A stretch of 64,000 nt of DNA from Naegleria gruberi (Eukaryota). Each line of letters starts with the position of its first letter. Position 1 is the first letter of the stretch. The notes beneath the pieces are model-generated. The model saw nothing but the letters and a program-made list of their open reading frames with translations. It was not told where the DNA came from and made no database searches. The stretch lies in the NCBI GenBank assembly GCA_000004985.1, contig GG738895.1; one strand, 5' to 3'. Positions 1,476-24,929 of this stretch are shown one piece after another. The position numbers and the translations under genes were made by a program.

Positions 1476-4400
1476 ATGTTGAAACTAAGACAACAACTCA
1501 TCAACACTGTCTTAAATTCACATTCTCCGACAGTGGGATTCAATACCTTGTTGTTTAATCATCAAACAACATCATTGGTAGGATCCACTACAACCTCATA
1601 TCGTGCTATTCATAATAATCGTGGTGGTAATAATAACTTTAGAAACAATGATAATGACAATAACAATAGAGGAGAATTTAAACCAAGATTCAACAAGCAA
1701 TATCGATCATCCGATGATGCTACTTCATCTTCAACAACTAACTTTAACAAGAATAGTGAAAATAGACGAGCACCATCTTCATCAAATAATTATTCATCTA
1801 ACAACAGGGCTTCGGATGGTACCAATGGATTCAAACAAAACCGTTTTGAAAAATCCAACAATAACTACCAAAGATCATCATACGACAATAATACTAGATA
1901 CGAAAACAAGTTTAAAAAGTACGATACTAATAATAACAATAGATTTAAACAACAAGGTGAAAGTCGCTTTGAAAAGTCTGATAATAAGTTTAAAAAGTAT
2001 GATGATAATAATGGTGATAACAACAGATTTAAACAACAAGGTGAAAATAGGGTTGAAAAGTCTGGCACTAACTACCAAAGACCTTCATACAATGGTGATA
2101 ACAACACAAGATATGAAAATAAGTTTAAAAAGTATGATGATAATGGTGATAACAACAGATTTAAACAACAAGGTGAAAATACAAGGTTTGAAAAGTATCA
2201 AAGATCATCCAATGAAGATAGAAATAACAACAATAGCTTTAGAAAGTATGACAGAGAAGAAAGGAGAGAAAGAGAGGAATTTAAGCCAAAATTCAAATCC
2301 ACAGTAGTTCCTTTTGATCAATACAAGAAACAAAACAAGACACAATCAAGTGACAAATTTTCAAGTGAATCATCACGTACTAGATCCAAGTCTCCTTATG
2401 GAACACAATCAAGGAATCAACCAAAATATGAAAGAAAGGAAAGATCCAATCCAATCTATGAATATGATGAAGAGATTGATACCCTTTTTGAAGATAATTT
2501 AACACAAAAATCTAGTAAGGGAAGAGAAAACACTCGATTCAAATCATCTATTGAGAATCATGTTGATTCATATATTAGTGGAAAAGAACAAAAACAACCA
2601 AGAAAACAAACCAAGATGGCCTATATTCCTGCAAATGAAAATGTTAGAAATATGATGAAAAAGGAAATGGACAATGATGATTTTGAAGATGATTTCCAAG
2701 ACCTTACAAGTGTTAAAAAGATTGATATGAAGAACGTCGATAAGGATACCAAGAAGAAACCAAGACAAAGAGAAATTAAAGATCCAATGAGTGATGATTT
2801 GAAATGGATTGATGAAGATGAATACATGGCCATTCGTCAAAAGGGAATGAAAAAGATCATGAACAGTAGAAATGATTCACTTTCTAAAGCCTCTTCTCAC
2901 ATCTTATCCCAATCTAGAAATAATGTCACAAAACCACTAAATGTTCCAAGCAATGTCACCTTTGTTATGGATGATTCCAGAAGTTTAACAAGAAACCAAC
3001 CAACAGAAGAAGAAATTGAGGATGATGATGAAGATGTAGTTTTCTATGGAGATGAAGACTTTGAAGAAGATGAAGATTTTGATTTTGAAGAGGATATGGA
3101 AGAAGAGGAAGAAGAAAAACCAAAAAAGAAGGGTTCAAAAAAAGTGAAAAAGGAGCAGGAAGAAGCTCCAAAAATTGATATTCTTCCAGATGCCATGGTT
3201 GGCAAGTATTTGAAACAAATACAAAAAGAAAAGATGTCAAAGAATAGAGAATTTAAGTCTTTGCCTGTTGTGAATGGAGTTGTAAAGGAAATTTTCTCTT
3301 GTGGGTTAGCATCGAAAAGAAGTTTGAAACAAGCTGAGTATCTTCAATACTTTACCAGTGATGAAGTTTCTAAAACTGATGAGGAAGCTCAATCTAGAAA
3401 TGCAATGGCTAACATGTTGGGCGGAAATAGGGTGATTGAAGCACAATTGAAGCGTCAACAAGTTGCCAGAAAGACAAACAAAACTAGTCTTGTCTACAAT
3501 CAACCAGAACTCAGAGCTGACTTGCAAGTGAAAGATGATGTTGTCAATTGGGTATTTAAAAATTACAAGATGAAATATATTGGTTCGATTGGACTTTCTA
3601 AGAAGGATGAAGAATTGCTTGCTAAGGAACTAGAACAAGAAATGCAAGAAGAAAATGAAGAAGAAAATGAAAAAGAAATTCAAGAAAAACAAGAAGAAAA
3701 CCAAGAAGAAAATGAGAATCAACGTCTAGATATTGACAAATTATCAAAGGAAGAGCTGGATGAAATTTTGGAGAAGGAAGAAAATCTCTATGACTTCTAC
3801 CGAAGAAATTTTGAGGATCAAGAAGAAGAGGAAGAAACCCAAGTAGAAAAGAAAGAAAAGAATGAAAAAGAAGAGCCTGAAACCTTGGTTAGAAAGCTCT
3901 ATGATATTTCTAGAATGCTTGAGAAATGCAAAGGAATTCCACAAGTGGCATTTGCAGGAAGATCAAATGTTGGTAAATCATCAATTATCAATGCAATTAC
4001 TGGTAGAAATAACCTCAAAGCATCTGAAAAACCTGGTCAAACAAAGGATTTGAATTTCCACAGATTTGGAAAACACTTTTGTCTGGTAGACATGCCTGGT
4101 TATGGTTTTGCCTTCACCAAGGACAGTTCTGTTACTCAAAAATGGTTGGATCTCATCAGAAATTATTTTGTACAAAGTAGTACTGATCTTAAGGTTGTCT
4201 TTTTATTGATTGATTCGCGTCTAGGACTTAAGAGAAAAGATATGGACATGATTTCATTCTTGGAAGAGAATAATGTTCCATACCAAATTGTTTTCACAAA
4301 ATGTGATTTGATGTATGTTGACGATTTGGCAAGAATGGCATTCAAAACATTCAAGATTGATCCACTCACAAAAGGCATGACATTCAAAAATCATATCAAG

Positions 4401-4556
4401 GATGAGGAAACAGGCGACTTTAGAATGGTTTTCGTGAGTTCCAGATCCAAGACAGGAGTTGCAAGATTAAAGGAGGATATCGTGCTAAGACATGCTAAAT
4501 TCGATGTTGAATCATGGAAAAAGAATGTTAAGAAGAATGTTGTACTATTTGTGTAG
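1476..4556 (+). CDS. EngB/YihA-family ribosome-biogenesis GTPase (GTPBP8-like) with a mitochondrial-presequence-like N-terminus and an ~850-aa low-complexity N-terminal extension
   Basis: The C-terminal domain carries G1 GRSNVGKSS, G3 DMPGYG and G4 TKCD, and aligns along its length with bacterial YihA (AFAGRSNAGKSS...DLPGYGYA...TKADK). The N-terminus (MLKLRQQLINTVLN...) looks like a mitochondrial presequence. It is a single exon. Confidence 0.8.
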   Translation: MLKLRQQLINTVLNSHSPTVGFNTLLFNHQTTSLVGSTTTSYRAIHNNRGGNNNFRNNDNDNNNRGEFKPRFNKQYRSSDDATSSSTTNFNKNSENRRAPSSSNNYSSNNRASDGTNGFKQNRFEKSNNNYQRSSYDNNTRYENKFKKYDTNNNNRFKQQGESRFEKSDNKFKKYDDNNGDNNRFKQQGENRVEKSGTNYQRPSYNGDNNTRYENKFKKYDDNGDNNRFKQQGENTRFEKYQRSSNEDRNNNNSFRKYDREERREREEFKPKFKSTVVPFDQYKKQNKTQSSDKFSSESSRTRSKSPYGTQSRNQPKYERKERSNPIYEYDEEIDTLFEDNLTQKSSKGRENTRFKSSIENHVDSYISGKEQKQPRKQTKMAYIPANENVRNMMKKEMDNDDFEDDFQDLTSVKKIDMKNVDKDTKKKPRQREIKDPMSDDLKWIDEDEYMAIRQKGMKKIMNSRNDSLSKASSHILSQSRNNVTKPLNVPSNVTFVMDDSRSLTRNQPTEEEIEDDDEDVVFYGDEDFEEDEDFDFEEDMEEEEEEKPKKKGSKKVKKEQEEAPKIDILPDAMVGKYLKQIQKEKMSKNREFKSLPVVNGVVKEIFSCGLASKRSLKQAEYLQYFTSDEVSKTDEEAQSRNAMANMLGGNRVIEAQLKRQQVARKTNKTSLVYNQPELRADLQVKDDVVNWVFKNYKMKYIGSIGLSKKDEELLAKELEQEMQEENEEENEKEIQEKQEENQEENENQRLDIDKLSKEELDEILEKEENLYDFYRRNFEDQEEEEETQVEKKEKNEKEEPETLVRKLYDISRMLEKCKGIPQVAFAGRSNVGKSSIINAITGRNNLKASEKPGQTKDLNFHRFGKHFCLVDMPGYGFAFTKDSSVTQKWLDLIRNYFVQSSTDLKVVFLLIDSRLGLKRKDMDMISFLEENNVPYQIVFTKCDLMYVDDLARMAFKTFKIDPLTKGMTFKNHIKDEETGDFRMVFVSSRSKTGVARLKEDIVLRHAKFDVESWKKNVKKNVVLFV
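1860..2230 (+). repeat. Tandem in-frame coding repeats of ~40 aa (~120 nt) in the GTPase N-terminal extension
   Basis: The unit YENKFKKYD(D/T)N(N)GDNNRFKQQGE(N/S)R(F/V)EKS occurs at least 3 times; the nucleotide copies differ only slightly. Confidence 0.6.
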
Positions 4557-5730: not shown

Positions 5731-7461
5731 ATGGTTCTCTTAACCATTTCACTTCTTCTCATCATTCTTGCACCACTCTCTTGGTTCATCTATGATAAGC
5801 TCTACAAACCATACTTGGACTGTCAAGTGCCAATCGAACAAATTGACAGCGTACTAAATGGAAACCAGAAGAAAATTGGAGAAACTGCCATCATTATTGG
5901 TGGATCATTCTCTGGTCTCACAACAGCCATGGTACTAAGTAAATACTATGAAAAAGTCCTCATCATTGATCGTTCCAAAATTATTCCAGACGAATCTATT
6001 GCCAAAAATAGACAAGGTGAACAAGCTCACGTAATTGCCTATCGTTCAATGCTTGTCTGGGAGAAATTATTACCTGGATTCCTAGATGAATTGAAAGAGT
6101 ATCTGAAAAGAAACAAATTAAATCAAATAGTTTATCCTGCAAGTCAAATTAAATATAATTATAAGAATGGTTTGGGAGTTTCGGATCATTTGGATATGAG
6201 AAAGAATCCAATGATTATGGCATCTAGAGGTCAGATTGAAACTATTTTGAGAGATAAAGTTAAGAGAGAATTGAAAAATGTAGAGTTTATTGATGGTTAT
6301 GCAGTTTCGTCTAGTGGAATTAAAGTTGAAACTGTTTCGGATAATTTAAATGGAAAGGTGACTCGTGTTAAATCTGTTACCATTACAAAGGTAGATTCTA
6401 ATGAACAAGATCAAGCCGGCAATTCCAAAACAATTGAATGTAATTTATTGGTCAATTGTGCAGGAGCTAATTCAAGTAATTTGATGAAAAATTTAGAAAA
6501 TGAAATTTCACCAAAAAAGAAAATTCTCACCAAATCATTTATTGATTGCAAGATTGGATATCAAACTATTTTCATGGAACCAAAAGATTCATCCTATGAT
6601 AGTGAAGGTAAAGTTGCCATTTATAGAGAAGAAAAAGAAAGTGAACAGGAAAATAGAAAATTGAATGATCCTTACTATATTGTCTATTATTTATTGTGTT
6701 ATCCAAGTAGAAAGGGTATTCTATTCATGCCATACAGTGATAATACCTTCCTCATCTTGTTAACAACTTACAATGAAAAGATTAACTCAGTTGAGTATGA
6801 AAATGCTAAAGAACAAATTATGGAATTCTGTTCAAGTAATCCAAAGATGGAAAGAGATGCTAAGAATATGCTTGAAAAATTCAAAGATATTCCAACAAAA
6901 ATTGTTCCATTCTTTGAAAAGAGTGGAAGTGAATATATTCACTATGAAGATTTGAAGGGAGTGAGAGATTTCATTGCAGTTGGAGATTCGTGTGGAAGTT
7001 TAAATCCTATTTATGGACAGGGAGTTACAATGGCTGTTGATTCTGCTGTGCTTTTAGATGAAATGATTAAGAATGAATTGAGTAAGAATGATTCATCCCC
7101 ACAACAAGTTTTCAAAGCATCATTCTGCCAGGAATTCCAATCAAGAATTTGTAAATCCTATCTCGTTCCATGGTTGTTGTGTTCAAGTACTGATATGAGG
7201 TTTGATTTTGCCAAGTACACTGATAATCTTTCAATGCAAAAGTTGATTGCTCCAATTTTGGGATGGGCCACAGATAAGATGTTCATGTCTGCCAATGTGT
7301 CATCAGTTTCTAGTTTCCACTTGATGAAACTCTTATTGATGGAAGATGGATTTAGAAAAGAACTTCTCAATTTGCGTTGGCTCTTTGGTTATGTTTTGAG
7401 AAAGGAAGCTATGATTGCAACTTTCTTATCACTTTCTGTCTATATTGCAACATTGTTTTAG
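5731..7461 (+). CDS. FAD-dependent monooxygenase/oxidoreductase with an N-terminal transmembrane segment
   Basis: It has an N-terminal hydrophobic helix, a Rossmann dinucleotide motif IIIGGSFSGLTTA...LIIDRS and a C-terminal VGDSCGSLNPIYGQGVTMA motif of the GD...P.xGQG flavoprotein-monooxygenase type. Confidence 0.65.
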   Translation: MVLLTISLLLIILAPLSWFIYDKLYKPYLDCQVPIEQIDSVLNGNQKKIGETAIIIGGSFSGLTTAMVLSKYYEKVLIIDRSKIIPDESIAKNRQGEQAHVIAYRSMLVWEKLLPGFLDELKEYLKRNKLNQIVYPASQIKYNYKNGLGVSDHLDMRKNPMIMASRGQIETILRDKVKRELKNVEFIDGYAVSSSGIKVETVSDNLNGKVTRVKSVTITKVDSNEQDQAGNSKTIECNLLVNCAGANSSNLMKNLENEISPKKKILTKSFIDCKIGYQTIFMEPKDSSYDSEGKVAIYREEKESEQENRKLNDPYYIVYYLLCYPSRKGILFMPYSDNTFLILLTTYNEKINSVEYENAKEQIMEFCSSNPKMERDAKNMLEKFKDIPTKIVPFFEKSGSEYIHYEDLKGVRDFIAVGDSCGSLNPIYGQGVTMAVDSAVLLDEMIKNELSKNDSSPQQVFKASFCQEFQSRICKSYLVPWLLCSSTDMRFDFAKYTDNLSMQKLIAPILGWATDKMFMSANVSSVSSFHLMKLLLMEDGFRKELLNLRWLFGYVLRKEAMIATFLSLSVYIATLF

Positions 7462-7524: not shown

Positions 7525-10500
7525 TTATTTCAAAAATTGTAACTCTGATTCATAAGCCTTTGGTTTGAATCGTTTTGGTAGTTCATTGGTTTTGGTATCC
7601 AATAACTTGGCATTTCCATCAAGTAACATGTTATCAAAGTGGAAAACGTTATCTTCCTTTGTCTTCTTGTTTACAATATCTGTGAATCGGTTAAATTCAA
7701 TCAATGGTTTGGCAATAACAGTTTCCAATCTTGGGGCTTCACCTAGAGCATCAATAATTTCAGAGGCAGAAATACCATTTGAGAAATCTTCAGATAAATG
7801 GCTCAAAACAAATCCAACTTGGTGTTTGGTCATTTCAGGACATACCAAAGTTCTCATTTCTTCTTGCAACAAGCCTTTTTGAACAATACATACGTCAGCA
7901 ACTTGTCTGCACATGACGAAAGCTTCTTCAGAGCTAGAGGTAGATTGTCTCAAACTGTGAATAATACCTTTAGAGTTGAACCAGTTCTCAATGAATGGCA
8001 ATCTCATCTTGATTTGAATAGCAGCATTTGTGTTCATCTTGTTTTGCAAGAAGTGGTTAAAGCATACAGCGTCAAGACCAGCAGCCAAATATTCAAAGAA
8101 ATGGTTGGAAATTCTCAAATCCACGTTATTGTTATCAAATTTGGATTTAAGTTCTGATAAACTTGCAAGAACAAATTTGATATCAGCTCCAGATTCTATT
8201 TCATATTGCTTTTCAGCAAAGAGAGCTCTAATCAACTTTTCTCTAACTCTACGAATGTGTTTCATAAGTAAATATGTGTAAGCCTTTCCTAATGTATTAG
8301 CCATTGATGTGAACAAGCTCTCCCAATTGGTAATAATTTCTTCGTTTTCTTCTCCTTCTTCAAGAGGTCTACTGAAAAGTTGTGGCATGTGTGGAGGATC
8401 GAATAGTGTTTCTTCTCCAGAAGCAGTGGTCTCTCTTGGACTTCTTAATGGACTTCTATTTCTTTGCTTCTCAAAAATAACAGCAGCATCACCAGTAGAA
8501 GTAGGTTTAAGTTGTTTGAGTGCCTTTTCAACAAGAGAGGCATTCTCCTTATCGAGTCCATGGAACATGGCAAGTAATCTACAAATTGCATTAATCCAAT
8601 AAATTAATTGATCATCATTGTGGGCATTCTTGTCTACAACATAATCAAGTGCATGAGAAACATTGGTAGCGAAAAGCTTATTTACACTCTTATTCTTTTC
8701 ATCGTTAATCTTCCACTTGTTAAGACATAGGAACAAAATTTTAACAGGAGTTGGAATTCTGCTATTCAAAACTTCAAAGGTTTGCACGTGTAAAATAGCT
8801 GACTCGACAACAAATCTTTGAACATCTAAAAGTTTGGATTGTTGAATGTAGGTGTCCATCTTTTCTTTAAGAACCTTTGCTTCTTCTTCCATCTTGGCCA
8901 TAGCTTCCTTGAGTACTGTTTCATTTTCACTCTTTTCATTAACTCCATTTTGCAAGTTATTAATTTCTTGGTTGCGCTTTTCAATAATCGAATCCAATTC
9001 ATTCATTGTAGTAACTTTTTGTTCCAGTTCTTGAGATTTTTCTGATAACTCTTGCTCCTTGGATTGAATGTTGTTAACAAGATTTTGTAAATCTTTTTCT
9101 CTAGTTTCAAGTTCTGTCTTTAGAGTTTGAATTTGCTCCTCTTGTTCAGTGACAGCTTGTGATTTTTGTACAAGTTCTTCATCAAGTTTGCTGAGTTTTT
9201 GTTCAAGTAATTCTGCTTCGGCTTGCTTTTCTTGAATCTTGTTATGAGCGTCTTGGAGTTGATTATTGAGATCAGATATTTCCTTTCCTTGTTGTTCAGT
9301 ACTTTCCAAAAGAGTACCTCTTTCTTGTTCGAGATCTCTCTTTTCTTTTTCAAGCTTTTCTAACTTTTCATCCATTTCATATTTCAATCTATTGAGAGCA
9401 TCTTCACTATTGACTTGAAGTCCCAAAAGTTCTCTGAGTTCATCTTGCTTGTTCTTCAACTCTTCGTCCTTTGATGAAATGATTCTGTCTTTTTCAGAAA
9501 TAGTTTTTTCGAAATCAGCAAGTTTTTCATGCAAACTCTCAAATTGCTTATTGAGGAATGATTGTTTGGCTTCTTCAGCGCTAGATGATTCTTCATTATT
9601 ATTGACTAAAGTACCGATCTTTGAGATGATATCTGCAATATTCTTGTTGTACTGTTCTTCTTTTTCTTCAATAACTTTGTTAAGACCTTGGGCCTTTTCG
9701 TCTTGCTCCTTTACTTGTTGTTGCAATTTTTCAACCACTAAATTGCTAGCATCCAACTCAGTGGTTACTCTTTCTTGCTTTTCTTTCAGGGTTTCAATTC
9801 TATTTTCCAGAGAAAGAACAATCTCCTTTGATTTAAATAGATCATTGATAGCTTCATCACGTTCTTGGATGGTTGTGGCCAATTGATTAGATTGTTCTGC
9901 GGAGGCATTCTTGAGTTTAGAAATTTCCTCTTCCAGTTGTTCAATACTTGCTTCTCTTTCGCTCAAAGATGCTTCAGCTCTATACTTGTCTTGGGTTACT
10001 TCGTTGAGTTGAGCTTTAGTAGTGTTGAGGTCATTATTGAGAGAATCAATTTGTTCATTCAAAGACTTAATATCCTTTTCTAAGGAGTCCGATTCTTCTT
10101 TTGCGGATACAAGTTTAGTCTCCAGAGATTCTTTTTCTTGAGTAAGACTTGAAATAATCTCTTCCTTGTGAGAGACTGACTTTGACAACAACATATTTTG
10201 GTGTTGATTGTCAGTAACATCATCTTCAAGTTTGGAGATTGATTCTCTGAGTTGAGCAATAATGATACCGAGATCCTTCTTCTCAACTTCAGCATTTTGA
10301 AGAATTTCAATCTTTTCTGATTCTAATTTTTCAAGTTTTTCAAGAGTTGAATCTTTTTCTTTGGTGATATCTTCAGCCAATTTTTTACTGGTGGCCAGTT
10401 GTTCACCAATTTCCTCCTTTGCTCTTCTTGTTTGTTTCAACTGTTCAGCAATTTCATCTTTCTCTTGATTGGCAATTTTGAGTGATTCTTGTGCCTTGTT

Positions 10501-13500
10501 CAATTCTTGGAGGAGCTTGTTGCCCATTTCTTCCTTTTCATTGATACTGGCCTCAAGAAGAGATTGTTTTTCTTTTTCTAAACTTTCAATCTTTGATTCA
10601 AGATCGATGATTTGACCCTTGTATTGTTCTCCATCTTCATTGGCATTCTTTAACTCTTGTTGAAGACTCTTGATGGTTTCTTCAAGTTGAGATTTTTGAC
10701 TTTCCAATTGGGTAACCTTGTTGCCCATAACTTCCTTTTCATTAAAGCTAGTTTCAAGAAGAGATTGTTTTTCCTTTTCCAAATTTTCAATCTTTGATTG
10801 AAGTTCAGTGATTTGACCCTTGTATTGTTCTCCATCTTCTTTGGCATTCTTGAGTTCTTGTTGGAGACTCTTGATAGTTTCTTCAAGTTGAGATTTTTGG
10901 GTATGAAGATCTGAATTGTCTTTCTCTATTCTAGAGATATTTTCATCCTTTAGGGAAATAATGTGCAACATTTCATCCTTTTGAGAGAGGGTAGAGTCAA
11001 GAAGTGATTGTTTTTCTTTTTCTAAGACTGCAATCTTCTTGTTAAGATCTGAAATTTGGCCTTTGTATTCCTCTCCATCTTCCTTGACTTTGTTAAGCTC
11101 GTCTTGAAGATTTTCAATCAATGTTTCAAGTTGAGCCTTTTGCTCATCTACTTGTTCTTTGTCTTTTTGGACCCTTTCGACCACTTGTTGTATGGTTTCA
11201 ACTTTTTGGTTTAATTCTTGAACCTTATTTTCAGCCAATAAGTGTTTCTTTTGGAGTTCTTCCAATTCTGAGGAGCTTGTTCTTAATTTCTTGGTAAATT
11301 CAAGAATTTCTAAGTCAGCTTTTTCTTTCTCTTGTTCCAATGATTCAAGCTCTTGTTCGAGCTCGTTACGTTCAGTCTTAATACCCTCTAGTTCCTTACC
11401 AAGTGATTCATACTTTTCGGAGAGTTCTGAATGTCTTGTTTGCAAAGATTCGAACCTGGACACTTGTGATGCAATTTCTTCAACTTTTTCCTTAATTTGA
11501 TTCAACAGGTCTTCCTTTTCTTCTGAATGAGCAGTTTCAAGATTCTTCTTTTCGGTCTCCAAGCTTTCTAATTGAATAATGACACCAGATAGTTTTTCGA
11601 CAGTGACATCCTTTTCTTCTCTCTCGGTAGCCAATGCAGACTTTGTAACTGATATTTCAGCCTTTAAACGCTCAATCTCTTTTTCTAATTCATCCTTAGC
11701 TGAAGCTTGTATTTCTATTTCTCTCTTCAAGCTTTTGATTTCCTCCTCATTTTGTTGGAGAAGTTTCAAAAGCTCTTCTTGTTTGCTCTTGAGTTCAATT
11801 TCCTTGTCATGTATGGCTGAGTCCTTTTCAGTAAGGAATGATTGGATAGCGATCAGTTGTTCTTTGAGATTGATGATTTCATTAGTGAGGCCATCCTTTT
11901 GATTAATTAAAAGTTCAATAACACTATCAGCAGAGTCACTATCTGTGCCAACAATCTTTGAAAGCTTACTGACCAAAGAGGTAATTTCATTCTTGTACTT
12001 AGCTTCTTGTTCAGAAAGGTTGGTGTTGAGTGTATCGATATTCTCCTCCTTGTTTTGAAGTTCAGACTTGAGGGCTTCAATTTGCTTCTTGCTTGCCTCA
12101 ACATCTCCATTCAATTCTGCAACTGATGACTCGAGCTTGGCAATAGAAGATTCCATTTCCACTATCTTGTCTTGCTTTTCTCTAATGCTTTGGACTTGCT
12201 CTTCAACTTGAGATTCTAATCCTTGTATGAGTTCTTGTTTGGCATTGATGTCAGATAAATGTTTTTCAATGGCGTCTTGCTTTTCTCTGAGAGTATTCAG
12301 GTAAGAATCATTGCTTTGATCAGTTTCGGATCTGAGCAAAGTAATTTGCTCCAACAATCCTTCCTTTTCCCTTTGGAGGGAACCAATATCTTCCTTTGAT
12401 TTTTCTAAATTGGAAATAACTTCGGTAAGCTCCACCTTGATGGAAGCCAATGATTCATCTAGTGTTTTCTTTTCCTCAACCAACTTATCAATAGAATCTT
12501 GTTTTTCATTGACAGATTTAGACAAAATAAGGGATTGATGTTGATTTTCAGTAACATCATCTTCAAGTTTGGAGATTGATTCTCTGAGTTGAGCAATAAT
12601 GATACCGAGATCCTTCTTCTCAACTTCAGCATTTTGAAGAATTTCAATCTTTTCTGATTCTAATTTTTCAAGTTTTTCAAGGGTTTCAGTCTTCTCCTTG
12701 AGTAAACCTTCATTTTCAGTGGAAATTTGGGAAATTTCTTGTTCAAGATCCTCCTTTGCTCTTCTTGTTTGTTTCAACTGTTCAGCAATTTCATCTTTCT
12801 CTTGATTGGCAATTTTGAGTGATTCTTGTGCCTTGTTCAATTCTTGCAAAAGTCTGTTACCAGCTTCTTCCTTTTCATTGATACTGGCCTCAAGAAGAGA
12901 TTGTTTTTCTTTTTCTAAACTTTCAATCTTTGATTCAAGATCGATGATTTGACCCTTGTATTGTTCTCCATCTTCATTGGCATTCTTTAACTCTTGTTGA
13001 AGACTCTTGATAGTTTCTTCAAGTTGAGATTTGTGACTTTCCAATTGCTCCTTGTCTTGTTCAATTCTATTGATACTATCATCCTTTGAGTTGATGATGC
13101 TATTCAATTCTTGAATCTTATTTTCAGCCAATAAGTGTTTCTTTTGGAGTTCTTCCAATTCTGAGGAGCTTGTTCTTAATTTCTTGGTAAATTCAAGAAT
13201 TTCCAAGTCAGCTTTTTCTTTTTCTTGCTCCAAGGATTCAAGCTCTTGTTCGAGCTCGCTACGAGCATTCTTGATATTCTCCAATTCCGTTTCAAGAGCA
13301 CTATTTGAAGTTCTAAGCTCATTAATCTCAGTATCTTTGTTTTGCATTTGTTCTAGCATGTTATTGAGCTTGTCTACAGTTGTATCTTTCTCTTCTCTTA
13401 TGGTTCCAAGTTGCTCTCTGAGTTCTGAAATTTCTTGTTTCAACTTTTCAATTTGGTCATCCAGGGTAGTATGGTGGTCGAGGGCTTGGGCGAGTTTTTC

Positions 13501-16500
13501 TTGATTGATCTTGAGATCCTTTTCTATTTCGTTCATTCTTTCCTCACGTTGAGCGATACTATTAGATAAAGATTCCTTTTCTTGTGAGGAAGATTCTCTT
13601 AGTAACTTTAAGGACTCTTCTAATTCTTCAATCTTAGTCTCTAGTAAAACTATCGTTTCTTGTTTCTTGGTATTTTCTTGTTCAACGATAATAATCTTCT
13701 CTCCAAGAGTTTGCTTGTCGGATTTTGTTTGAGAAAGCTCTTCGGAAAGAGTATTGTTTTCTTCCTTTACGTGTTTCAATTTCTCTTTGGTTTCTTCCAA
13801 CTCTTTCAACAAGGAACCTTCCTTAAGATCAGAGCTAGAAAGAAGACTGTTCTTCTCTTGAGTAAGGGTTTCAACTTGTTTGTTTAGTGAAATAATTTCC
13901 ACTTCATTCTCCTTAATTTTCTCTGAAAGCTTGGACTTCTCAGAGATATGTTTTTCTAGTTCTCTAGTCTTTTCTTCAATAAGGTTTGTCAGGTCTGTCA
14001 ACTTCTTGTCTGCATCACTTGAGAGAGATTCGAGTTCTGAAATTCTACCTGCTGAGGTTTGCAATTGTGAAGTAGACTCAGCGAGTTGATCTTCTAGCTG
14101 CTTCTTTGCTTCCTCCAATTGTTGCAGTTTGTCAGCAAGTTGATTCTTTTCGGAAAGTAATTCACTAATTTGACTAGAAAGAGTATCAGAGCCTTGACCC
14201 AATCTTTCCAATTCATCCTTAGTTCTTTCTAAACTTTGGCTTGTTTCTTCCAACTTTTGTTTGTATTCTAATACTTGTTTATCCAATTGTTCATGAGCAC
14301 TAATTTCTTTAGAAAGTTCTTGTTCCTTTTGTTGAATAGTTGCAGAAAGTTCTTTTCTCTCCTTTGTCAATAAATCTTCAATGTCGTTCTTTTCTTTTTG
14401 AATCTTTTCAATTCTTTGCAGCAATCCTGAAACCTCTGATGATGTATTTTCTTTATCACTTGTAATAAGTTTTAATTGCTCTTCTAAATTGGAAATATTG
14501 GACAAGGCTCTTTCGAGATCAACCTTGAAAGTATCTCTTTCTTGGACAGTACCTTCGAGTTCTTGTTCCTTGTCCTGTAGCGATTTGGAAACTTGTGCAG
14601 ATTTTTCTTGTTCACTCTTCAGAGATTCTTCAAGGGTAGTAACTCTGGATTTGATTTCTACCAATTCCGTTGCTAGGTTTTTCTTTTCATCGTTAAGTTC
14701 AGAGACCTTTTGTTGTGATTCGGTGAGATTTTGTTTTAGTTCCTCGATAGTGGAATTGAGAGAAGTTATTGTTTTCTCGAGGTCATCTGATTTTTGCTTG
14801 AAATCCTCAATTTGAGATTCAAGCTCTTCATTTTGTTTTCTAACAGATTCGACTTCCTGACTGACTTTGGAAAGTTTCTCATCTAATGACCCATTTTGCA
14901 CCTTCAATGATTCATATTCTTGCAACAAGTTATTCAGCTTTTCCTTATGTTCTGACAATTCTTTGAAGAATGTTTCTTTCTCCTTTTCGGTTTGAGAAAG
15001 AACTTCCTTAGTTCTATTCATTTCATTTTGAAGGTTAATATACAGCGAATCCTTTGTTTCAGAATCATTAAGATTTTGATCTTGCAAATCTTTAAGTTGC
15101 TTCTTAATCGATTCAATCTCATTAAGAGATTTTTCTTTTTCATCACGAGTTTGTTCCAATGTCTTATTAATATTTACAAGTTCTTGTTGTGTATCTTGTA
15201 ATTGCTTTTCTAAAGATAGCTTCTCGGTGGAATGCTGTTCAATAGTTGTATTGTTCTGATTAACAAGATCTTCATATTTTTGGGAAAGGGTGTTATACTC
15301 CTTTTCTTGATTGTCTTTGTTTTCATTTAGACTGGAAATAGTAGCTTCTAACGATGAAATTTGTTGAGTTAAAGAAGAAACCTTATCTTGCAAATCAACT
15401 TTTGCTTTAGTTTCGGCTTCAATCTCGCTCTCTCTGGTCTTTAACTCCTTTCTAAGATTGGATTCCTTTTCAGAAACGTCAGAAAGGTTTGATTCAAGAC
15501 TTGAAATCTTTTCAGACATTTGCTTAACCTCATTGTTGAGTCTTTCCTTCTCTCTATTTGCCTCATCAAGTTGTTGCTCTTTTTGCTTAATATTGTTCAT
15601 CAGTTCTTGTGATAAACTTTCTTGACTTGCCAAGGAAGTAGTAATAAGTTGATTCTTTTCATTCTCGAGTTGAGTAACTTTTTCATTCAGTAACTTGATT
15701 TCACTTTCAAGTTCAACCTTATCCTTTTTGACTTGATCTAATTCTGAATCAATTCTACTGTTAAACTCAACTAACTCCAAATTGGTTTGCTTGATTGCAT
15801 TTAACTTTAGAAGAAGAAGATCTGTCATTTTATGCAACTCTTCTTGAATTTGATCCGGATGAATCTTTTCAAACTCGTTACTCTTGCTATGGTTAATAAA
15901 TTCGTCACTTAATTTGGTGGCTTCTTTAATCTTCTTCTTGAAGTCATTGTCTTCAGTCACTTGAGTCATAGCTTCTTCCAGTTTCTTCTTCAGCTTGTTG
16001 AATTCTTGAATACATGACAACAAAATTTCATGTTCCTTGTTGGTCTTTTGGAGATTATGATTAGTCTTCTCAAGTTGAGTAGTAATTTCTGATTTTTCCT
16101 TCAAAATCTTTTGAATAGATTCGTGATTCTCGTTATCTTCTTTTTCTTTCAACTTCTTCAAGCTTTCAAGTTCAGATCTGATAATCTCAATATCTTTTTC
16201 TTTTGAAGATGCTTCACTTTCATAATGCTTCTTCAAGAATTATAGTGTTTCCATATTTTTTAAAACTTACCTTAAGTCTTGTGAGCTCTGAATTTAACTC
16301 TTCATTTGTATGCTTGAGTTGTTTAACATTTTCTTCGAGATTATGAGATTTATCCTCTGATGCCTTCAACTTTAGAGAAACTGATGAAACCTCCTCTTGT
16401 ATTTCCTCAATACGACCTTCATACTCACGACTAGATTTTTCCTTCTCTGCATTATTTTCCTGAATAATGTCATCCTTTCTGGAAGATTCCTGTTTCAAGT

Positions 16501-17701
16501 TTTCAATACTTTCCTCCAAGGATTTAATTTGTTTTTGAAGTGTTTCCTTTTGTTCTTGCAAGGTATCAGATTCTGCTTCCATCTTTTAACATTATTAGAA
16601 ACATTGTTAAAATGTTGAAACCTACCTCTTCAAGCTTATCTTTTGTTTGCTTGATTTGTTGTTCATACTTTTGTTGGGCTTGTTTCGATTTGAGTTGAAT
16701 CTCAAACAATTTGCTGTCTGCCTCTTGTTGGGCTTCTTGGGCACGATCATATTCTTCCCTAAGATTTTTAGCTTCCTCCTGAATAATTCTCAACTTTTCC
16801 TCGAGTTCATCTCTTTCCTTTGCAATTTGAGATACTATGGATGTCTTGTCATCCCCTTCAAGCTCTTTAATACGTTTCTGAAGGGATTCTATTTGTTCAC
16901 GTAACTCTCCAACAATATTTTCCTCAGCAAGTGATCCTCTGCTGAGTATGAAGGAACCTCCATTTCTAGGTGTTCCATAATCCTGTTAATAATAAACAAA
17001 TATTATAATTTCCAAAATCTATATGTAAACATACATTGTGAGTGGCTTCATCTTCCTCTTCTCCATTATCTCCTCCTGTATATGTACTAACTCCATCAAA
17101 ATCATCATCACTATCAACCAATATATTGATCATCATTTGTTCAATTTAAAAACTTACAGTCCGGGAACATTTTTCAAGCATCTTGAATTGATGACAATTT
17201 TAAGTTTAGCTTTTCCGACAGGTTTTGGGATAACCAAGCTGAGTTCCTTTGTTTGTGTAACTTCCTCACTTTCATTAACAAATTGACCAAGATCAAGTTC
17301 CTCCTTTACCAAAACAGTATCTTTTGATTGGTGTGTTTTGTTATTTGTAACTCTTTCCTCAAGAGTAAGTACTAAATCCTTCTTTTGAAAAACACCCTTC
17401 TTTTTGACAAGTGTACCATTAAACTTGAAAGTAGTATTCCAAGTCACTCTTTCTCTGTCAATTTTGGTGTATGGTGTTTCACCTTTACGTTTCTTACCTC
17501 TCTTCCAATGAACCTATAAACAAATATAAGAAATTCCATTTGATTATTTAAAAAACATACTGCATAAAACACATCTTCATCAGGTGTTGGTTGACGAGAT
17601 AAACTTGAATTTTTAAAATCAAAGAGGTGATCAACAGACAAATTAAATTGGAATTTAACATTTTCCTTTCCACCTCCAAGGAAAGATTTCTTTTTCAACA
17701 T
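7525..17701 (-). CDS. Giant (~3315 aa) coiled-coil protein with an N-terminal NT-C2-like domain and a C-terminal DIL (myosin V/afadin-type) domain; six exons
   Basis: Exons on the minus strand are 17561-17701, 17158-17513, 17036-17110, 16626-16983, 16271-16582 and 7525-16230. Introns are 40-52 nt with GTATGT/GTAAGT/GTAGGT donors, and all phases are consistent. The N-terminus (VKFQFNLSV...VHWKRGKKRKGETPYTKIDRERVTWNTTFKFNGTL...) matches the NT-C2 pattern. The C-terminus (FNHFLQNKMNTNAAIQIKMRLPFIENWF...CRQVADVCIVQKGLL) matches the DIL domain. About 2700 aa of heptad-repeat coiled coil lie between. Confidence 0.8.
10200..11350 (-). repeat. Intragenic near-identical duplicated blocks (copy set 1) within the giant coiled-coil gene
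   Basis: 10206-10703 is nearly identical to 12543-13040 (offset 2337 nt). 11205-11350 is nearly identical to 13105-13262. Units of ~210 nt encoding SQLEETIKSLQQELKNANEDGEQYKGQI..LESKIESLEKEKQSLL recur at least 4 times. Confidence 0.75.
12540..13270 (-). repeat. Intragenic near-identical duplicated blocks (copy set 2) within the giant coiled-coil gene
   Basis: This is the partner of 10200-11350. The antisense ORFs 10080..10310 and 12459..12647 share an identical N-terminus, reflecting the duplication. Confidence 0.75.
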
Positions 17702-18133: not shown

Positions 18134-19965
18134 TTAATGTTTGTCAACAACCATAGTCTTGGCATTACACCATTCAAGAATACCTTCAGAACCACATTCT
18201 CTACCATAACCACTTTCCTTAACACCACCGAATGGCATTTCTGGGCTTGATCTAACAACACCATTAACAAAGGCCATACCACATTCAAGTTTTTCAGCAA
18301 TCTTGGAAGCTTTCTTGACATCCTTACTATAAACACTACCACCAAGACCATAGATGCTTTCATTAGCCAATTGAACAGCATGATCAGCATTTTCAGCAGC
18401 AACAACAACGAAAACTGGTCCAAAGAGTTCATTATGGAATGCAAAATTATCAGTTGTAACATTTGACAAAACAGTTGGTTGATAGAAGAAACCATTGCTC
18501 AATTCACCTGACAAACTAGCCTTAGAACCACCAGCCAAAACCTTAGCACCTTGACTAACACAGAGTTTAACTTGATCATCCAATTTGTCCATCAAATCTT
18601 TTCTGGCCATTGGACCAACATCATTACCTCTAACAAGTGGATCACCCAATTTTAAGCTCTTAACCTTTTCAGCGAGCATTTTTTCAAATTGTGGAAGAAC
18701 TTCCTTTTCAACAATTAATCTCTTAGCAGCAATACAAGTTTGTCCACAATTGTTAATTCTTGAAACAACAGCATTCTTGACAGCAAGTTCCAAATCGGCA
18801 TCCTTAAGAACAATGAAAGCATCAGCACCTCCCAATTCCAAAACGTGCTTCTTAAGATTGGAAGCAGCTTGGCTGGCAATAATTTTACCAACTTGAGTAC
18901 TACCAGTGAATGCAACACCACGAATCTTATTGTGACTAATAGTAGTACTAACTTGTTGATTTTCAAGGAAGACATTTTGATAAATCTTGTTCAATTCAGA
19001 TGGAGCACCACTTTAAGAATGATGTTAACATTTTTTGTAAAATTATAATGAACTACATACGCTTTAGCAAGAGCTTCTTCAAATAAATCTTGAATTGATT
19101 TAGCACAAGTGGGAACTTGGTGATTGTGTCTAATCATAACAGTGTTACCAGCCATCATTGCAGGAACACAGAATCTAATAACTTGCCAGTATGGGAAATT
19201 GCTAATTAAATTGAAAATAAACACATTCACATTACAGAGTACAACTACTTACAATGGGGCACATTGAAGAACTGGTCCAAGTGGTTGGTAGACAACTCTA
19301 CTGAACATCTTTTCATTATCAAAAACAACCTTATCACGCAAAACACTTTCAGAAGTCTTGACATAATATCTGATGAGAGATGCACACTTTTCAGCTTCAG
19401 CAACACCTTGAGCAACTGGTTTACCCATATCCAAAGCCATCATTTTAGCTAATTCTTCCTTGTGAGCTTCGAATGCATCAGCAAGTGGATTCATGATTTG
19501 AGAACGCCATTGAATTAATTCAGCAATTTCCTTTGGATTTTCTATTTTGTTAATTCCACAATAATTTCGTTATTATTAATTATTATTATTTGTTGTTTGT
19601 CGTTGATGATAATTTAAATTATTCACATCACAAATTCCACATCAATTTAAAATCCAAAATTCCATCATCGTCATCACAAAATAATTCCGAAACCTCTAGT
19701 ATATAAAAACGTCCTCCATCTAAAACAACCTACCTGAGTATAATTGTGGATTCCAAGCTTGGAATGACTTCCAACTTTCTTGAATAGCTTGTTCCAATTG
19801 TTGATCAGAAAGACATTCAAATTGTTTGGTCAACTTTCCGTTAGTTGGATTGATAGAATTATAGTGAGTGTTCAACTTGGAGCTAGTGGAAAAACACTTG
19901 TCATTGCTTGAAGCAACTTTTCTCAATTGATTTAATGCTGAAGAAGCCTTCTTTGATTGATTCAT
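18134..19965 (-). CDS. Aldehyde dehydrogenase superfamily protein, probably a succinate-semialdehyde-dehydrogenase-like enzyme of the NFPYWQ subtype; four exons, with a mitochondrial-presequence-like N-terminus
   Basis: Exons are 19734-19965, 19253-19541, 19061-19201 and 18134-19010, with introns of 192, 51 and 50 nt. It carries ELGG, catalytic CGQTC, FTGST and the motif APFNFPYWQVIRFCVPAMMAGNTVMIRH. The ATG at 19965 starts MNQSKKASSALNQLRKV. Confidence 0.85.
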
Positions 19966-22571: not shown

Positions 22572-24929
22572 TTATTCTCTCAATAAGGCTTCGAATTGTG
22601 GAGCAATCTTGTTAATTCTTTGTTCGAATAATTCGTTTGCCTTATCAAGTCTTTGACTTAGCGCTTTGAATTCATTTCCAGTAGTTGTAAGTTTCTTAAG
22701 AACTGCATAACTTTGTTGCCAGAATGGGATTGCAACTTCTCTGAATTCTTTATATGGATTTTGACAACAGAGGAACATGGATTTAAAGTTCTTTGGACTG
22801 AGTTTGTCTTCTGGGGTTGACAAAAGGTAATAAGCCAAAATACCCATAATATTGTTATGGTCAACAGAAAAACCAGTGATATCTCTCATAGTAGACATGA
22901 CACCTGATAAACTTTCAGATGAAATACTACGAGACATGTATACTGCTGTCAATAATGATTCATACAAGTGAGCAATATTTGTTTGCAATAATTTAACAAT
23001 GGAATAGTAAATAGCGAGATCTAACTTGATTAATCCTGTCCAACCACTCTTAGACAATGATGTACGTCTAAATGTTAATGGAACAAGACTCAAAATTCTA
23101 GTGATCAACAATATTTCATCTTCATTTTCAATCTTTTCCTCAACTGCGTATGGTTTTTCGTAAGTCCAAGAAGCAGTAAGAATGTTCATCTTGGCTAATT
23201 CAACGAGCACAAGTGTTTGTTCTATATGAGTCTTGGCATTAGATAAAACCTTTCCTTTAGAGGACAAGATGTCTAATGATCCTTGTTGTGGTTTCTTAAT
23301 ATATCCCAAAGTTTCCAAAACTTTCAAGTGAATAAATGTTTTAACTTCATTTGGTGTGGTAAAGTTTTGCATTTGATTCTTCTTGAGAAGTGTTGGTTTC
23401 AAATTCAATACCAAGCCCAATGACATAGAGTTATTGGTATATGTAATTTTCTGTTGTTGAAGATATTTGGTGATGTTTGCTTCATTAATTTGGAATTGAA
23501 GGCCATCCATAAATACATTTACAGGTTTTCTTTCTATATAAATTGTGTCGTTAGAATTTTCATCTGAAGAGTTATATCTAACAAGCATAACATTTTTGTG
23601 TTTAAAGTAGTCATTCATTTCACTAGTCAAATAGTTCAATGATGATGTATAAATAGGTTTCCAAGTGTTGATAAATTCCTTATATTCCAAAGAATCAAAA
23701 AGAGGATTTGGTTCATAAAATACTCCATTCACTAAATTTCCGACCAATTGTGGTGATAAAATACCATGACAAATTAAAAAGTAAATTTCTTCAGGTAATC
23801 TTTCTCCAACAATTTCTTCAAAGTCTCTAGGAAGAGCATCTCTATTCATTACAACAACTGTATTTCCAATAAAATCCAAAACTGGATGATGCATAATCAA
23901 ATACTTATTTAACAAGAAAGGCACTGTAAGATCCTCACGAGAATTCATTGTAAGAATACTTTTAGCTGAACCAATTCCTTTGATATTATCAATTTCTGTT
24001 TTGAAACGATCCTCTTTCTTTACAGTATTTTGGAATGGTGAAGGAGAAGAAAATCCTTTGAAAAAATAGCTTCCTGAAAGAAGAGCTGCATCCAAAAATT
24101 GATTGCTACTAATTCTTTCTTGTGTAAGAATTGTCTTCTTTTCCACATATTGGAATGTCTTTTCATCAAAATTAAGTGAGAAAATAACTTTAGGAATATC
24201 AAACATTAATAATTCTTCATCTCCCATAACACCATTAACCAATTTAGCATCAGACATGTATGACAGTTGTCCCCAAGCTAAATATGGTGCTCTCAAAAAT
24301 TCGATATCATTTTCATTAAACAATTCAAATAATGCATTAAGAGTGTCAATTGATGCCAAAAATTGATTTCCTTGTGCTGTTTACAAAGTGTGTAATTTTA
24401 AATATTAATTAATATTAATACAAACCTCTAGAGAATAACATAAGGGCTTCTCTCTTTTGATCCTTTTCATAAGAACCCCAAGCAGATTTCAAAGAAACTG
24501 TTCTAGCTTGATATATACTTGTTGAGCGTTCCTTCTTTACGCAATTAATACCATTAAATACAAAAACTGGTGTAATTCCAGCATCCCTAAATATATTTGA
24601 AAACTATTTCTTCATCAAATACTTACTTGAATTGTTTTAAATTAGTTTGAACCAATAAAGCTAATGAAATAGGAGTACCTCCTGTAGCCATTTGGAAAGG
24701 TTCATGTTTTTCATCATATAAAACTTTCAACCAATGAAATCCATCAATTCCTATTTTACATCCACGAAGAGCATCAAGAGATTCCTTTTTAATAAAGTTT
24801 TTTTCAGATAAATAACCTATACAATCATGATGATAATAATAATATTAAAAATTCCGTAATGAAATTAATCCACAATTAATTCACTTGATGATTAATAAAA
24901 AACATACTAGACAATCCTTGAATCGTCAT
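22572..24929 (-). CDS. MKT1: MKT1-like protein with an inactive XPG-N (FEN1-fold) nuclease-like domain; four exons
   Basis: Exons are 24908-24929, 24627-24816, 24426-24586 and 22572-24376, with introns of 91, 40 and 49 nt and consistent phases. The N-terminus MTIQGLSSYLSEK...KIGIDGFHWLK...DAGITPVFVFNGINCVKKE parallels FEN1 MGIQGL...KVAIDAS...GIKPVYVFDGK and yeast Mkt1 NITPIFVFNGG. Confidence 0.6.

What the first reader, a model, noticed from the sequence alone, without database searches (positions are those of the whole stretch)
7525..17701. Motor-less tether-like giant: NT-C2 membrane-binding-type domain, ~2700-aa coiled coil and a myosin-V-type DIL cargo-binding domain
NT-C2 occurs in the EHBP1/EEIG family, and DIL in myosin V tails and afadin. 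I do not know of a characterised protein that combines the two at the ends of a ~3300-aa coiled coil with no motor or CH domain. Such a molecule could be a long organelle or cortex tether (a golgin-like or spectrin-like role), carrying a C2-type lipid anchor at one end and a Rab/cargo-type DIL module at the other.
Basis: partly seen in the sequence, partly recalled or inferred. Interest (0 to 1): 0.6.

Follow-up and report, generated by a model that had tools for sequence, protein, structure and literature searches.

The report
Giant motor-less C2–coiled-coil–myosin-V-tail protein
This is a real six-exon Naegleria gruberi gene for a 3,315-residue protein with a lipid-binding-type C2 domain, a roughly 0.4-micrometre coiled-coil rod and a complete myosin-V-type cargo-binding tail but no motor; it is the longest member of an unstudied protein family found in heterolobosean and amoebozoan amoebae.

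Summary

Two corrections apply. The organism is Naegleria gruberi (Heterolobosea), not an amoebozoan. The NT-C2 plus GTD architecture is not unique. It recurs in uncharacterised proteins of Willaertia (1,730 aa, the closest known relative, sharing two intron positions), N. fowleri, Heterolobosea sp. BB2, Pharyngomonas, Entamoeba marina and Cavostelium, at 581-1,730 aa. The giant size partly reflects recent internal duplication.

The most likely function is a parallel dimeric tether or adaptor. A basic C2 head would sit on acidic membranes and the GTD would hold an unknown cargo receptor. The MyoVb Rab11-contact residues are not conserved. Function is inferred, not shown.

The parts
7525..17701 (-). 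Whole gene: six exons, five introns, 3,315-aa product (382 kDa, pI 4.85)
   Evidence: ORF list, translation and hand-built splice model. The 3' neighbour NAEGRDRAFT_81138 ends at 7461, convergent with a 63-nt gap. An ALDH gene lies upstream from 18134.
17561..17701 (-). Exon 1 (residues 1-47): start codon, N-terminal basic patch KKK (3-5), first strands of the C2 domain
   Evidence: The N-terminus aligns with Willaertia, N. fowleri, BB2, Entamoeba and Cavostelium homologues.
17172..17668 (-). NT-C2 domain (residues 12-161, interrupted by intron 1 at 17514-17560). Net charge of residues 1-165 is +13, with polybasic loop W-KRGKKRK (50-57).
16935..17159 (-). Acidic linker (residues 166-207; net -9) with motif D-D/E-D-F-x-x-V-S-T shared with Willaertia and P0005. 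Contains introns 2 and 3.
   Evidence: Intron 2 is phase 2, at the same codon as intron 1 of the Willaertia gene.
16523..16934 (-). Conserved coiled-coil 'neck' (residues 208-330), about 50% identical to Willaertia 319-440. The motif DRAxEAQQxADxKLFExQLK is also present in P0005.
   Evidence: Local alignments. The rest of the rod shows no similarity beyond composition.
8803..16943 (-). Coiled-coil rod (residues ~205-2890, ~2,686 aa, ~399 nm if continuous; net charge -225). The longest low-heptad segments are at residues 519-554 (holding the only proline, P539), 1943-1979 and 2352-2376.
   Evidence: Composition and heptad analysis with shuffled controls. No 28-residue charge period. Only sub-threshold coiled-coil Pfam matches.
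12373..13272 (-). Rod duplication, copy A (residues ~1401-1700)
   Evidence: Protein self-comparison gives 64-80% identity to copy B. DNA repeats are 85-96% identical.
10039..11379 (-). Rod duplication, copy B (residues ~2032-2478), with extra tandem 67-81-aa units (DNA spacing 201 and 243 nt)
7528..8802 (-). Complete myosin-V-type globular tail domain (residues ~2891-3315), ending in the conserved E-L-x-F-L motif
   Evidence: AF2 model pLDDT 80.9, pTM 0.82. The Foldseek PDB top 32 hits are all MyoVa/b/c, Myo2p or Myo4p GTDs over 380-444 alignment columns. The family profile hits MyoVb GTD at E 4.5e-40.
7795..8100 (-). DIL core (Pfam PF01843; residues 3125-3226), with FNxxL...QIKM...ENW followed by the VCPxxT motif
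   Evidence: Pfam 41.9 bits against a cut-off of 24. Family alignment columns.

Best explanation
This is a Naegleria gruberi gene for a motor-less, probably parallel-dimeric, rod-shaped tether or adaptor.

Shown here:
- An N-terminal NT-C2 domain with a C2 beta-sandwich fold, net charge +13 and two basic patches.
- A short acidic linker, then a 120-residue coiled-coil neck conserved with Willaertia.
- About 2,690 residues of heptad coiled coil, partly built by recent internal duplication.
- A complete two-subdomain myosin-V-type globular tail domain (GTD).

Inferred:
- The basic C2 head binds acidic phosphoinositide-rich membrane without calcium, as the NT-C2 of EHBP-1 does.
- The rod dimerises in register, so each end carries a pair of identical domains.
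- The GTD pair binds a receptor, a small GTPase or a short peptide motif on another organelle or vesicle.
- The protein thereby links or spaces two compartments, or captures cargo at a membrane, over distances up to about 0.4 micrometre.

In logic it resembles EHBP1 (a membrane-binding NT-C2 plus a C-terminal Rab-binding module) and long coiled-coil tethers such as golgins. It is a member of neither family. It belongs to an uncharacterised NT-C2-coil-GTD family of Heterolobosea and Amoebozoa, and it is the longest member found.
For: - Gene model and domains.
- C2 fold.
- Full GTD fold and profile homology to MyoVa/b/c, plant myosin XI and Myo2p.
- Coiled-coil rod.
- No other domain.
- Basic head on an acidic rod: +13 against -225.
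- EHBP-1 precedent: its NT-C2 binds PI(4,5)P2 membranes and needs two basic patches, one before strand 1 and one internal (PMC4894640). The giant has KKK (3-5) before strand 1 and KRGKKRK (51-57), and both are conserved across the family.
- GTD precedent: in myosin V the GTD follows a dimerising coiled coil and binds Rab11 on SD-2 and peptide motifs on SD-1 (PMC5021521).
- Same architecture elsewhere: Willaertia KAL9645710.1 (1,730 aa; 50% identity in the C2, 35-40% in the GTD), N. fowleri XP_044569341.1, Heterolobosea sp. BB2, Pharyngomonas, Entamoeba marina, Cavostelium, and one Logan contig. The BB2, Pharyngomonas and Cavostelium sequences come from transcript assemblies.
- Two intron positions and phases are shared with the Willaertia gene.
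Against: - No experiment or expression data for this gene could be reached.
- Lipid binding, dimerisation, register and any GTD ligand are all inferred.
- The two MyoVb residues whose mutation abolishes Rab11 binding (Y1714, Q1748) correspond to M3156 and I3196 here. They are Met and Ile/Val/Met in nearly the whole family, so a Rab11-type contact cannot be assumed.
- Outside the neck, the rod is not conserved even with the closest relative, and relatives make do with rods of 300-1,000 residues. The extreme length may not be functionally required.
- My heptad measure is crude. Breaks at residues 519-554, 1943-1979 and 2352-2376 could let the rod fold.
Confidence: 0.5

Rival explanations
1. The protein works like its 600-1,700-aa relatives, as a short-range NT-C2/GTD adaptor. 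The giant rod is a recently inflated, largely neutral spacer produced by duplication-prone repetitive coding sequence. The 0.4-micrometre length then has no specific role.
For: Rod segments of about 300 aa are duplicated at 64-80% protein identity and up to 96% DNA identity, with tandem 67-81-aa units. Outside the neck the rod is not conserved with Willaertia, whose ortholog-like protein is only 1,730 aa. Other family members are 581-1,001 aa.
Against: The reading frame stays open over 8.7 kb and heptad periodicity is maintained throughout, which argues for selection on a continuous coil. The older parts of the rod are unique sequence, not recent repeats.
Confidence: 0.25
2. It is a structural, self-assembling cytoskeletal protein, either filament- or bundle-forming or a component of a fibrous structure such as a rootlet or cortex lattice. 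The end domains would serve only as attachment points.
For: The rod is a very long, uninterrupted, highly acidic coiled coil. Weak sub-threshold similarity to tropomyosin, crescentin-rod and CALCOCO profiles appears in the rod.
Against: There is no 28-residue (or 28/3) charge periodicity of the kind that drives myosin-II rod packing. Charge spectra do not exceed shuffled controls. The conserved parts are the two globular ends and the neck, not the rod. The Pfam rod matches are all far below their cut-offs.
Confidence: 0.15
3. The gene model is wrong. The NT-C2 exons are a separate small gene, and the coiled-coil/GTD ORF starts at an internal methionine (first Met in exon 6 is residue 502).
For: No transcript data for this locus could be accessed. 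My exact 3,315-aa model is not in the protein collection.
Against: All five introns are canonical, 40-52 nt and frame-restoring, and intron retention would introduce stops. Exons 4-5 encode the neck, which is contiguous with both the C2 and the rod in Willaertia and P0005. Two intron positions and phases match the Willaertia gene. Transcript-derived family members carry both domains on one ORF. The gap between exons 5 and 6 is only 40 nt.
Confidence: 0.03

Closest known systems
Uncharacterised NT-C2-coiled-coil-GTD proteins of Heterolobosea and Amoebozoa (Willaertia magna KAL9645710.1, 1,730 aa; N. fowleri XP_044569341.1, 834 aa; Heterolobosea sp. BB2 683-749 aa; Pharyngomonas kirbyi 704 aa; Entamoeba marina KAL7717993.1, 581 aa; Cavostelium apophysatum 828 aa)
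   Same: They have the same order of NT-C2 at the N-terminus and DIL/GTD at the C-terminus, the shared W-K/R-R-G-K-K-x-x-G-E-T loop, and the shared C-terminal E/D-L/F-x-F-L end. With Willaertia the giant also shares the neck and two intron positions.
   Different: The giant is 2-6 times longer and its rod carries recent internal duplications. In a crude NJ tree of GTDs it groups with Willaertia 1730 and other long heterolobosean proteins, apart from the short NT-C2-DIL proteins.
EHBP1 / C. elegans EHBP-1 (NT-C2 - CH - bMERB/coiled-coil Rab-binding domain)
   Same: Both have an N-terminal NT-C2 with two basic patches. In EHBP-1 these patches are needed for PI(4,5)P2-membrane binding (PMC4894640). 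The overall logic is the same: a membrane-binding head plus a C-terminal module that recognises a vesicle-bound partner.
   Different: The giant has no CH domain, no bMERB/DUF3585 and no prenylation box. A GTD stands in place of the Rab-binding domain, and a 2,690-aa rod in place of a short linker.
Class V / XI myosin tails (coiled coil + globular tail domain)
   Same: It has the whole two-subdomain GTD, preceded by a dimer-type coiled coil, with the DIL core and C-terminal LEFL-type motif retained.
   Different: It has no motor and no IQ neck. The positions equivalent to MyoVb Y1714 and Q1748 (Rab11 binding) are Met and Ile.
Plant RPG and relatives (NT-C2 - disordered region - long coiled coil, 1,255 aa)
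   Same: [quoted passage not shown]
   Different: RPG has no GTD and is plant-specific. I did not test homology of the two 'neck' regions.
Long coiled-coil tethers (golgins, giantin, EEA1); comparison from general knowledge
   Same: These are rods of hundreds of nanometres with a membrane anchor at one end and a capture module at the other.
   Different: They use different end domains (GRIP/GRAB/TM, FYVE, Rab-binding coils). No sequence relationship was found.

Membership tests
NT-C2 (PF10358; EEIG1/EHBP1-type N-terminal C2) | Profile match above Pfam's gathering score, located at the extreme N-terminus | tested here: met
   52.2 bits against 25.2, residues 12-161, profile positions 2-138 of 143.
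NT-C2 (PF10358; EEIG1/EHBP1-type N-terminal C2) | C2 beta-sandwich fold | tested here: met
NT-C2 (PF10358; EEIG1/EHBP1-type N-terminal C2) | Basic patches before strand 1 and inside the domain, required for membrane binding in EHBP-1 | tested here: met
   KKK (3-5) and KRGKKRK (51-57) are present and conserved in the family. Positional equivalence to RRLRR and HRRRK is judged by eye, not by structure.
NT-C2 (PF10358; EEIG1/EHBP1-type N-terminal C2) | Binding to acidic phospholipid membranes | not testable with these tools
   Needs liposome co-sedimentation with recombinant residues 1-200.
Myosin-V-type globular tail domain (DIL, PF01843) | DIL profile match above the gathering score | tested here: met
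   41.9 bits against 24. The match is lost when the 2,901-aa exon-6 product is scanned whole.
Myosin-V-type globular tail domain (DIL, PF01843) | Complete two-subdomain helical GTD fold, not only the 105-residue DIL core | tested here: met
   The Foldseek top 32 hits are MyoV, Myo2p or Myo4p GTDs, 380-444 columns, TM (target) up to 0.69. The family profile matches MyoVb GTD residues 19-393 of 394, E 4.5e-40.
Myosin-V-type globular tail domain (DIL, PF01843) | Rab11-contact residues of MyoVb (Y1714, Q1748) | tested here: not met
   The equivalents are M3156 and I3196. The family consensus is Met and Ile/Val/Met.
Class V/XI myosin | Myosin motor domain and IQ neck | tested here: not met
   No Myosin_head or IQ hit in residues 1-255 or in the exon-6 product. 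The upstream gene is an aldehyde dehydrogenase.
EHBP1 family | Central CH domain and C-terminal bMERB (DUF3585) Rab-binding domain | tested here: not met
   No CH or bMERB match.
Uncharacterised NT-C2-coil-GTD family (Heterolobosea/Amoebozoa) | NT-C2 at the N-terminus and GTD at the C-terminus of one polypeptide, with family-specific motifs (WKRGKKxxGET loop; ELxFL end) | tested here: met
   With Willaertia there is also a shared neck and two shared intron positions.
Golgin-type tethers | Golgi-targeting module (GRIP, GRAB or C-terminal transmembrane anchor) | tested here: not met
   No such Pfam match. The C-terminus is the GTD.

The most novel reading that the evidence does not exclude
The globular tail domain may be an old cargo-recognition module that works without a motor. 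Heteroloboseans keep a whole set of motor-less GTD proteins (NT-C2-GTD short and long forms, and CH-coil-GTD). The N. gruberi giant would then be a roughly 0.4-micrometre molecular spacer that positions or captures organelles relative to phosphoinositide-rich membrane, in a cell reported to lack interphase microtubules. In that case the family would bear on whether the GTD predates its fusion to myosin. It would also bear on whether the family moved between Amoebozoa and Heterolobosea by gene transfer, as has been proposed for class-2 myosin (PMC5583752, PMC3942036).
Probability: 0.12. Interest if true: 0.7.

Novelty: new variant of a known kind. Interest (0 to 1): 0.4.

Why it matters
The myosin-V cargo-binding tail is usually discussed as part of a motor. 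Here it sits on a passive rod anchored by a lipid-binding-type C2 domain, and the same pairing recurs in two distant groups of amoebae.

If the family is a tether or adaptor, it would be a motor-independent use of the GTD, parallel in logic to EHBP1. That would add a new class of long-range membrane linkers in protists.

There is also a practical point. Full-length profile scans of these coil-rich proteins failed to report the end domains, and the collection's precomputed Pfam field for the Willaertia gene is empty. The family is therefore probably under-annotated in databases.

The gene itself lies in a published genome and all function is inferred, so the finding is of moderate rather than high interest.

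Tried and rejected
- The search for homologous proteins with the C-terminal 460 aa and with the N-terminal 310 aa returned nothing, although the Willaertia homologue is in that collection. The exhaustive representative search found the family.
- phmmer of the single GTD sequence against PDB sequences found no myosin. The family profile did.
I could not recover the public accession of this gene or compare gene models.
- The AlphaFold-database fold library was unavailable, so GTD proteins of N. gruberi could not be listed.
- The Zhang and Aravind 2010 NT-C2 paper is not held. I could not check whether it already lists an NT-C2+DIL architecture.
- I could not establish whether Naegleria has any DIL-bearing myosin. 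The passages I retrieved from the myosin inventories mention class 1, class 2 (myosin II), class XIII and orphan myosins for Naegleria or Heterolobosea.
- There is no synteny around the Willaertia gene.
- Orthologs in N. fowleri and N. lovaniensis were not seen among the hits. They may be hidden behind a withheld cluster representative, so conservation of the giant length within Naegleria is untested.
- Rejected: a myosin-II-like filament-forming rod, because there is no 28-residue charge period.
- Rejected: a Rab11-type binding site, because the contact residues are not conserved.
- No tRNA or Rfam family lies in the window.
Full report
**What is in the sequence**

The minus strand between 7525 and 17701 carries one 2,903-codon open frame (7525-16236), preceded by shorter coding blocks. 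Reading the 5' region gives six exons: 17701-17561, 17513-17158, 17110-17035, 16982-16626, 16582-16271 and 16230-7525. They are joined by five introns of 47, 47, 52, 43 and 40 nt. All begin GTAAGT, GTATGT or GTAGGT and end AG, and each restores the frame.

The spliced CDS is 9,948 nt with no internal stop. It encodes 3,315 aa, 382 kDa, pI 4.85. The gene fills its slot. A convergent gene ends 63 nt beyond its stop, and an aldehyde dehydrogenase gene lies about 430 nt upstream.

**Organism**

The ARP6 gene in the window (36676-37962) is 100% identical to NCBI's N. gruberi ARP6 protein and 68% identical to the N. lovaniensis protein. The ORF at 5731-7461 is exactly NAEGRDRAFT_81138 / XP_002672774.1. 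The window is therefore Naegleria gruberi (Heterolobosea, Discoba), not an amoebozoan.

**The two end domains**

- Scanned in isolation, residues 1-255 match NT-C2 (PF10358) at 52.2 bits against a cut-off of 25.2. The last 460 residues match DIL (PF01843) at 41.9 bits against a cut-off of 24.
- A model of the last 460 residues, built on a 27-sequence alignment, has pLDDT 80.9 and pTM 0.82. The 32 best Foldseek matches in the PDB are all globular tail domains of MyoVa, Vb, Vc, Myo2p or Myo4p, aligned over 380-444 columns.
- A profile of the family alignment hits human MyoVb GTD at E 4.5e-40, MyoVa at 3e-38, plant myosin XI (Myosin-17) at 3.4e-38 and yeast Myo2p at about 1e-28. The alignment runs over the whole domain to the C-terminal LEFL-type motif, which the giant retains as ELQFLK.

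The C-terminal module is thus a complete myosin-V-type GTD, not just a DIL core.

**The rod**

Residues about 205-2890 contain one proline, no tryptophan and 53% E+K+Q+L. 95% of these residues fall in 28-residue windows with strong a/d hydrophobic periodicity, against 19-27% in shuffled rods. If continuous, 2,686 residues span about 399 nm.

Short low-heptad segments include 519-554 (with P539), 1943-1979 and 2352-2376. Pfam finds only sub-threshold coiled-coil families in the rod and no motor, IQ or CH domain. There is no 28-residue charge repeat of the myosin-II kind.

The NT-C2 region has net charge +13, the linker -9 and the rod -225.

**Rod growth by duplication**

Residues about 1401-1700 recur at about 2032-2131 and 2280-2478 with 64-80% identity. 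The second copy carries extra tandem 67-81-aa units. At the DNA level the repeats are 85-96% identical.

**Relatives**

An exhaustive HMMER search of 1.84 billion representative proteins with the GTD region found only 49 hits at E <= 1e-3. The best is Willaertia magna KAL9645710.1 at 1,730 aa. By BLASTP it is 50% identical to the giant over the C2 domain and about 35% over the GTD, or 40% over the GTD by phmmer. Its isolated N-terminus scores 58.8 bits for NT-C2.

NT-C2 and DIL both pass the cut-offs in these proteins:
- N. fowleri XP_044569341.1 (834 aa)
- Heterolobosea sp. BB2 transcripts (683-749 aa)
- Pharyngomonas kirbyi (704 aa)
- Entamoeba marina KAL7717993.1 (581 aa)
- Cavostelium apophysatum (828 aa)
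- One Logan contig (1,001 aa)

Other partners of this tail among the hits are a CH domain (Willaertia, 1,197 aa), RasGAP (three metagenomic proteins) and a myosin head (Clastostelium).

A crude NJ tree puts the giant with Willaertia 1730, next to an ENA contig protein and an N. lovaniensis 830-aa protein. The short NT-C2-DIL proteins form another group. I do not lean on this tree.

**Conservation pattern**

Against Willaertia, only the C2, the GTD and a 'neck' are conserved. The neck is giant 208-330 against Willaertia 319-440, about 50% identity. Its motif DRAxEAQQxADxKLFExQLK is also present in ENA protein P0005.

**Gene-model support**

Two N. gruberi introns sit at the same position and phase as introns of the Willaertia gene:
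- A phase-2 intron in the codon just before D-[D/E]-D-F, immediately after the C2 domain.
- A phase-0 intron at LK|xxYE (K414|K415 against K504|A505).

The BB2, Pharyngomonas and Cavostelium family members come from transcript assemblies and carry both domains on a single predicted ORF. I could not reach transcript data for this locus. My exact model is not in the protein collection.

**Mechanism**

Shown: the domain architecture, the folds, the charge layout and the conservation pattern.

Inferred from established knowledge:
- EHBP-1's NT-C2 binds PI(4,5)P2-rich membranes and needs two basic patches, RRLRR before strand 1 and HRRRK (PMC4894640). The giant has KKK at 3-5 and KRGKKRK at 51-57, both conserved in the family.
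- In myosin V the GTD binds Rab11 on subdomain 2 and short peptide motifs on subdomain 1 (PMC5021521).

I therefore favour a parallel dimer with two C2 heads on acidic membrane and two GTDs holding a receptor on another compartment, acting as a tether, spacer or capture device.

The cargo is unknown. MyoVb Y1714 and Q1748 are mutated as a pair in constructs (PMC4639860), and the single Q1748R/Q1753R mutation disrupts Rab11 binding (PMC5021521). These positions align to M3156 and I3196. They are Met and Ile/Val/Met in nearly the whole family, including the amoebozoan myosin in the alignment.

**Rivals**

- The length is neutral inflation of a short-range adaptor. The duplications, the unconserved rod and the shorter relatives support this.
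- It is a self-assembling structural protein. The missing charge periodicity and the fact that conservation lies in the end domains rather than the rod argue against it.
- The gene model is wrong and the locus is split. This is unlikely.

**Comparison and novelty**

The protein is not a myosin (no motor), not EHBP1 (no CH or bMERB) and not a golgin. It is a member of an NT-C2-coil-GTD family that is visible in databases. Some members carry automatic names such as 'C2 NT-type domain-containing protein' or 'Dilute domain-containing protein'. I found no literature on this family. No paper in the searchable library holds both 'NT-C2' and 'DIL domain', and none of the listed Naegleria, Dictyostelium or Entamoeba papers mentions NT-C2. 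The founding NT-C2 paper could not be read.

I rate it a new variant of a known kind, with moderate interest.

Noticed in passing
window 7528-16230 (-); L001 8001-13847: Scanning the coil-rich proteins whole hides their end domains. The 2,901-aa exon-6 product shows no DIL at E<=1e-3. Full-length Willaertia P0001 shows neither NT-C2 nor DIL, although the isolated ends score 42-59 bits. The precomputed Pfam field for the Willaertia gene is empty. Such proteins are probably under-annotated.
   Followed up: partly
P0019 (Willaertia magna KAL9645609.1); P0020, P0024, P0030 (metagenomic): The same type of globular tail is attached to other heads. One protein has a CH domain plus coil plus tail (1,197 aa). 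Three have a RasGAP domain plus the tail, of which only P0030 passed the Pfam DIL cut-off. This suggests a modular family of motor-less GTD adaptors.
   Followed up: partly
window 10039-11379 and 12373-13272: In-frame segmental duplication inside the rod, with DNA identity up to 96% (10407-10706 against 12744-13043), plus tandem 201/243-nt units. This is either recent expansion or a place where a short-read assembly could be wrong.
   Followed up: partly
window 16523-16934 (residues 208-330): The coiled-coil 'neck' just after the C2 domain is conserved far better than the rest of the rod. The motif DRAxEAQQxADxKLFExQLK occurs in three heterolobosean proteins. It could be a binding site or a dimerisation trigger, but this is untested.
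   Followed up: partly
window 7528-7560 (C-terminus): The extreme C-terminal motif (I/L)P-x-(R/K)F ... E/D-L/F-x-F-L is conserved from human MyoVb (IPACLNLEFLNE) to the giant (LPKRF...ELQFLK) and most family members.
   Followed up: partly
window 29278-35760 (-), 36676-37962 (-), 22572-24359 (-), 41910-44081 (+), 18134-18994 (-): The neighbours are ordinary nuclear housekeeping genes, mostly as long uninterrupted ORFs. They include the DNA polymerase epsilon catalytic subunit (2,160 aa in one ORF), ARP6, an MKT1-like protein, Sas10/Utp3 and an aldehyde dehydrogenase.
   Followed up: partly
window 1476-4556 (+) and 22-1398 (+): A 1,026-aa ORF has a GTPase domain (MMR_HSR1) only in its last 200 residues, and nothing is recognised in the first 780. 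A 458-aa ORF has no Pfam match at all.
   Followed up: no
tool behaviour, against 26, 30: The word-indexed protein search returned no hit for either end of the protein. Yet a 50%-identical Willaertia N-terminus sharing the 11-residue word WKRGKKRKGET is in that collection. Naegleria orthologs of the giant were also absent from the exhaustive search.
   Followed up: no
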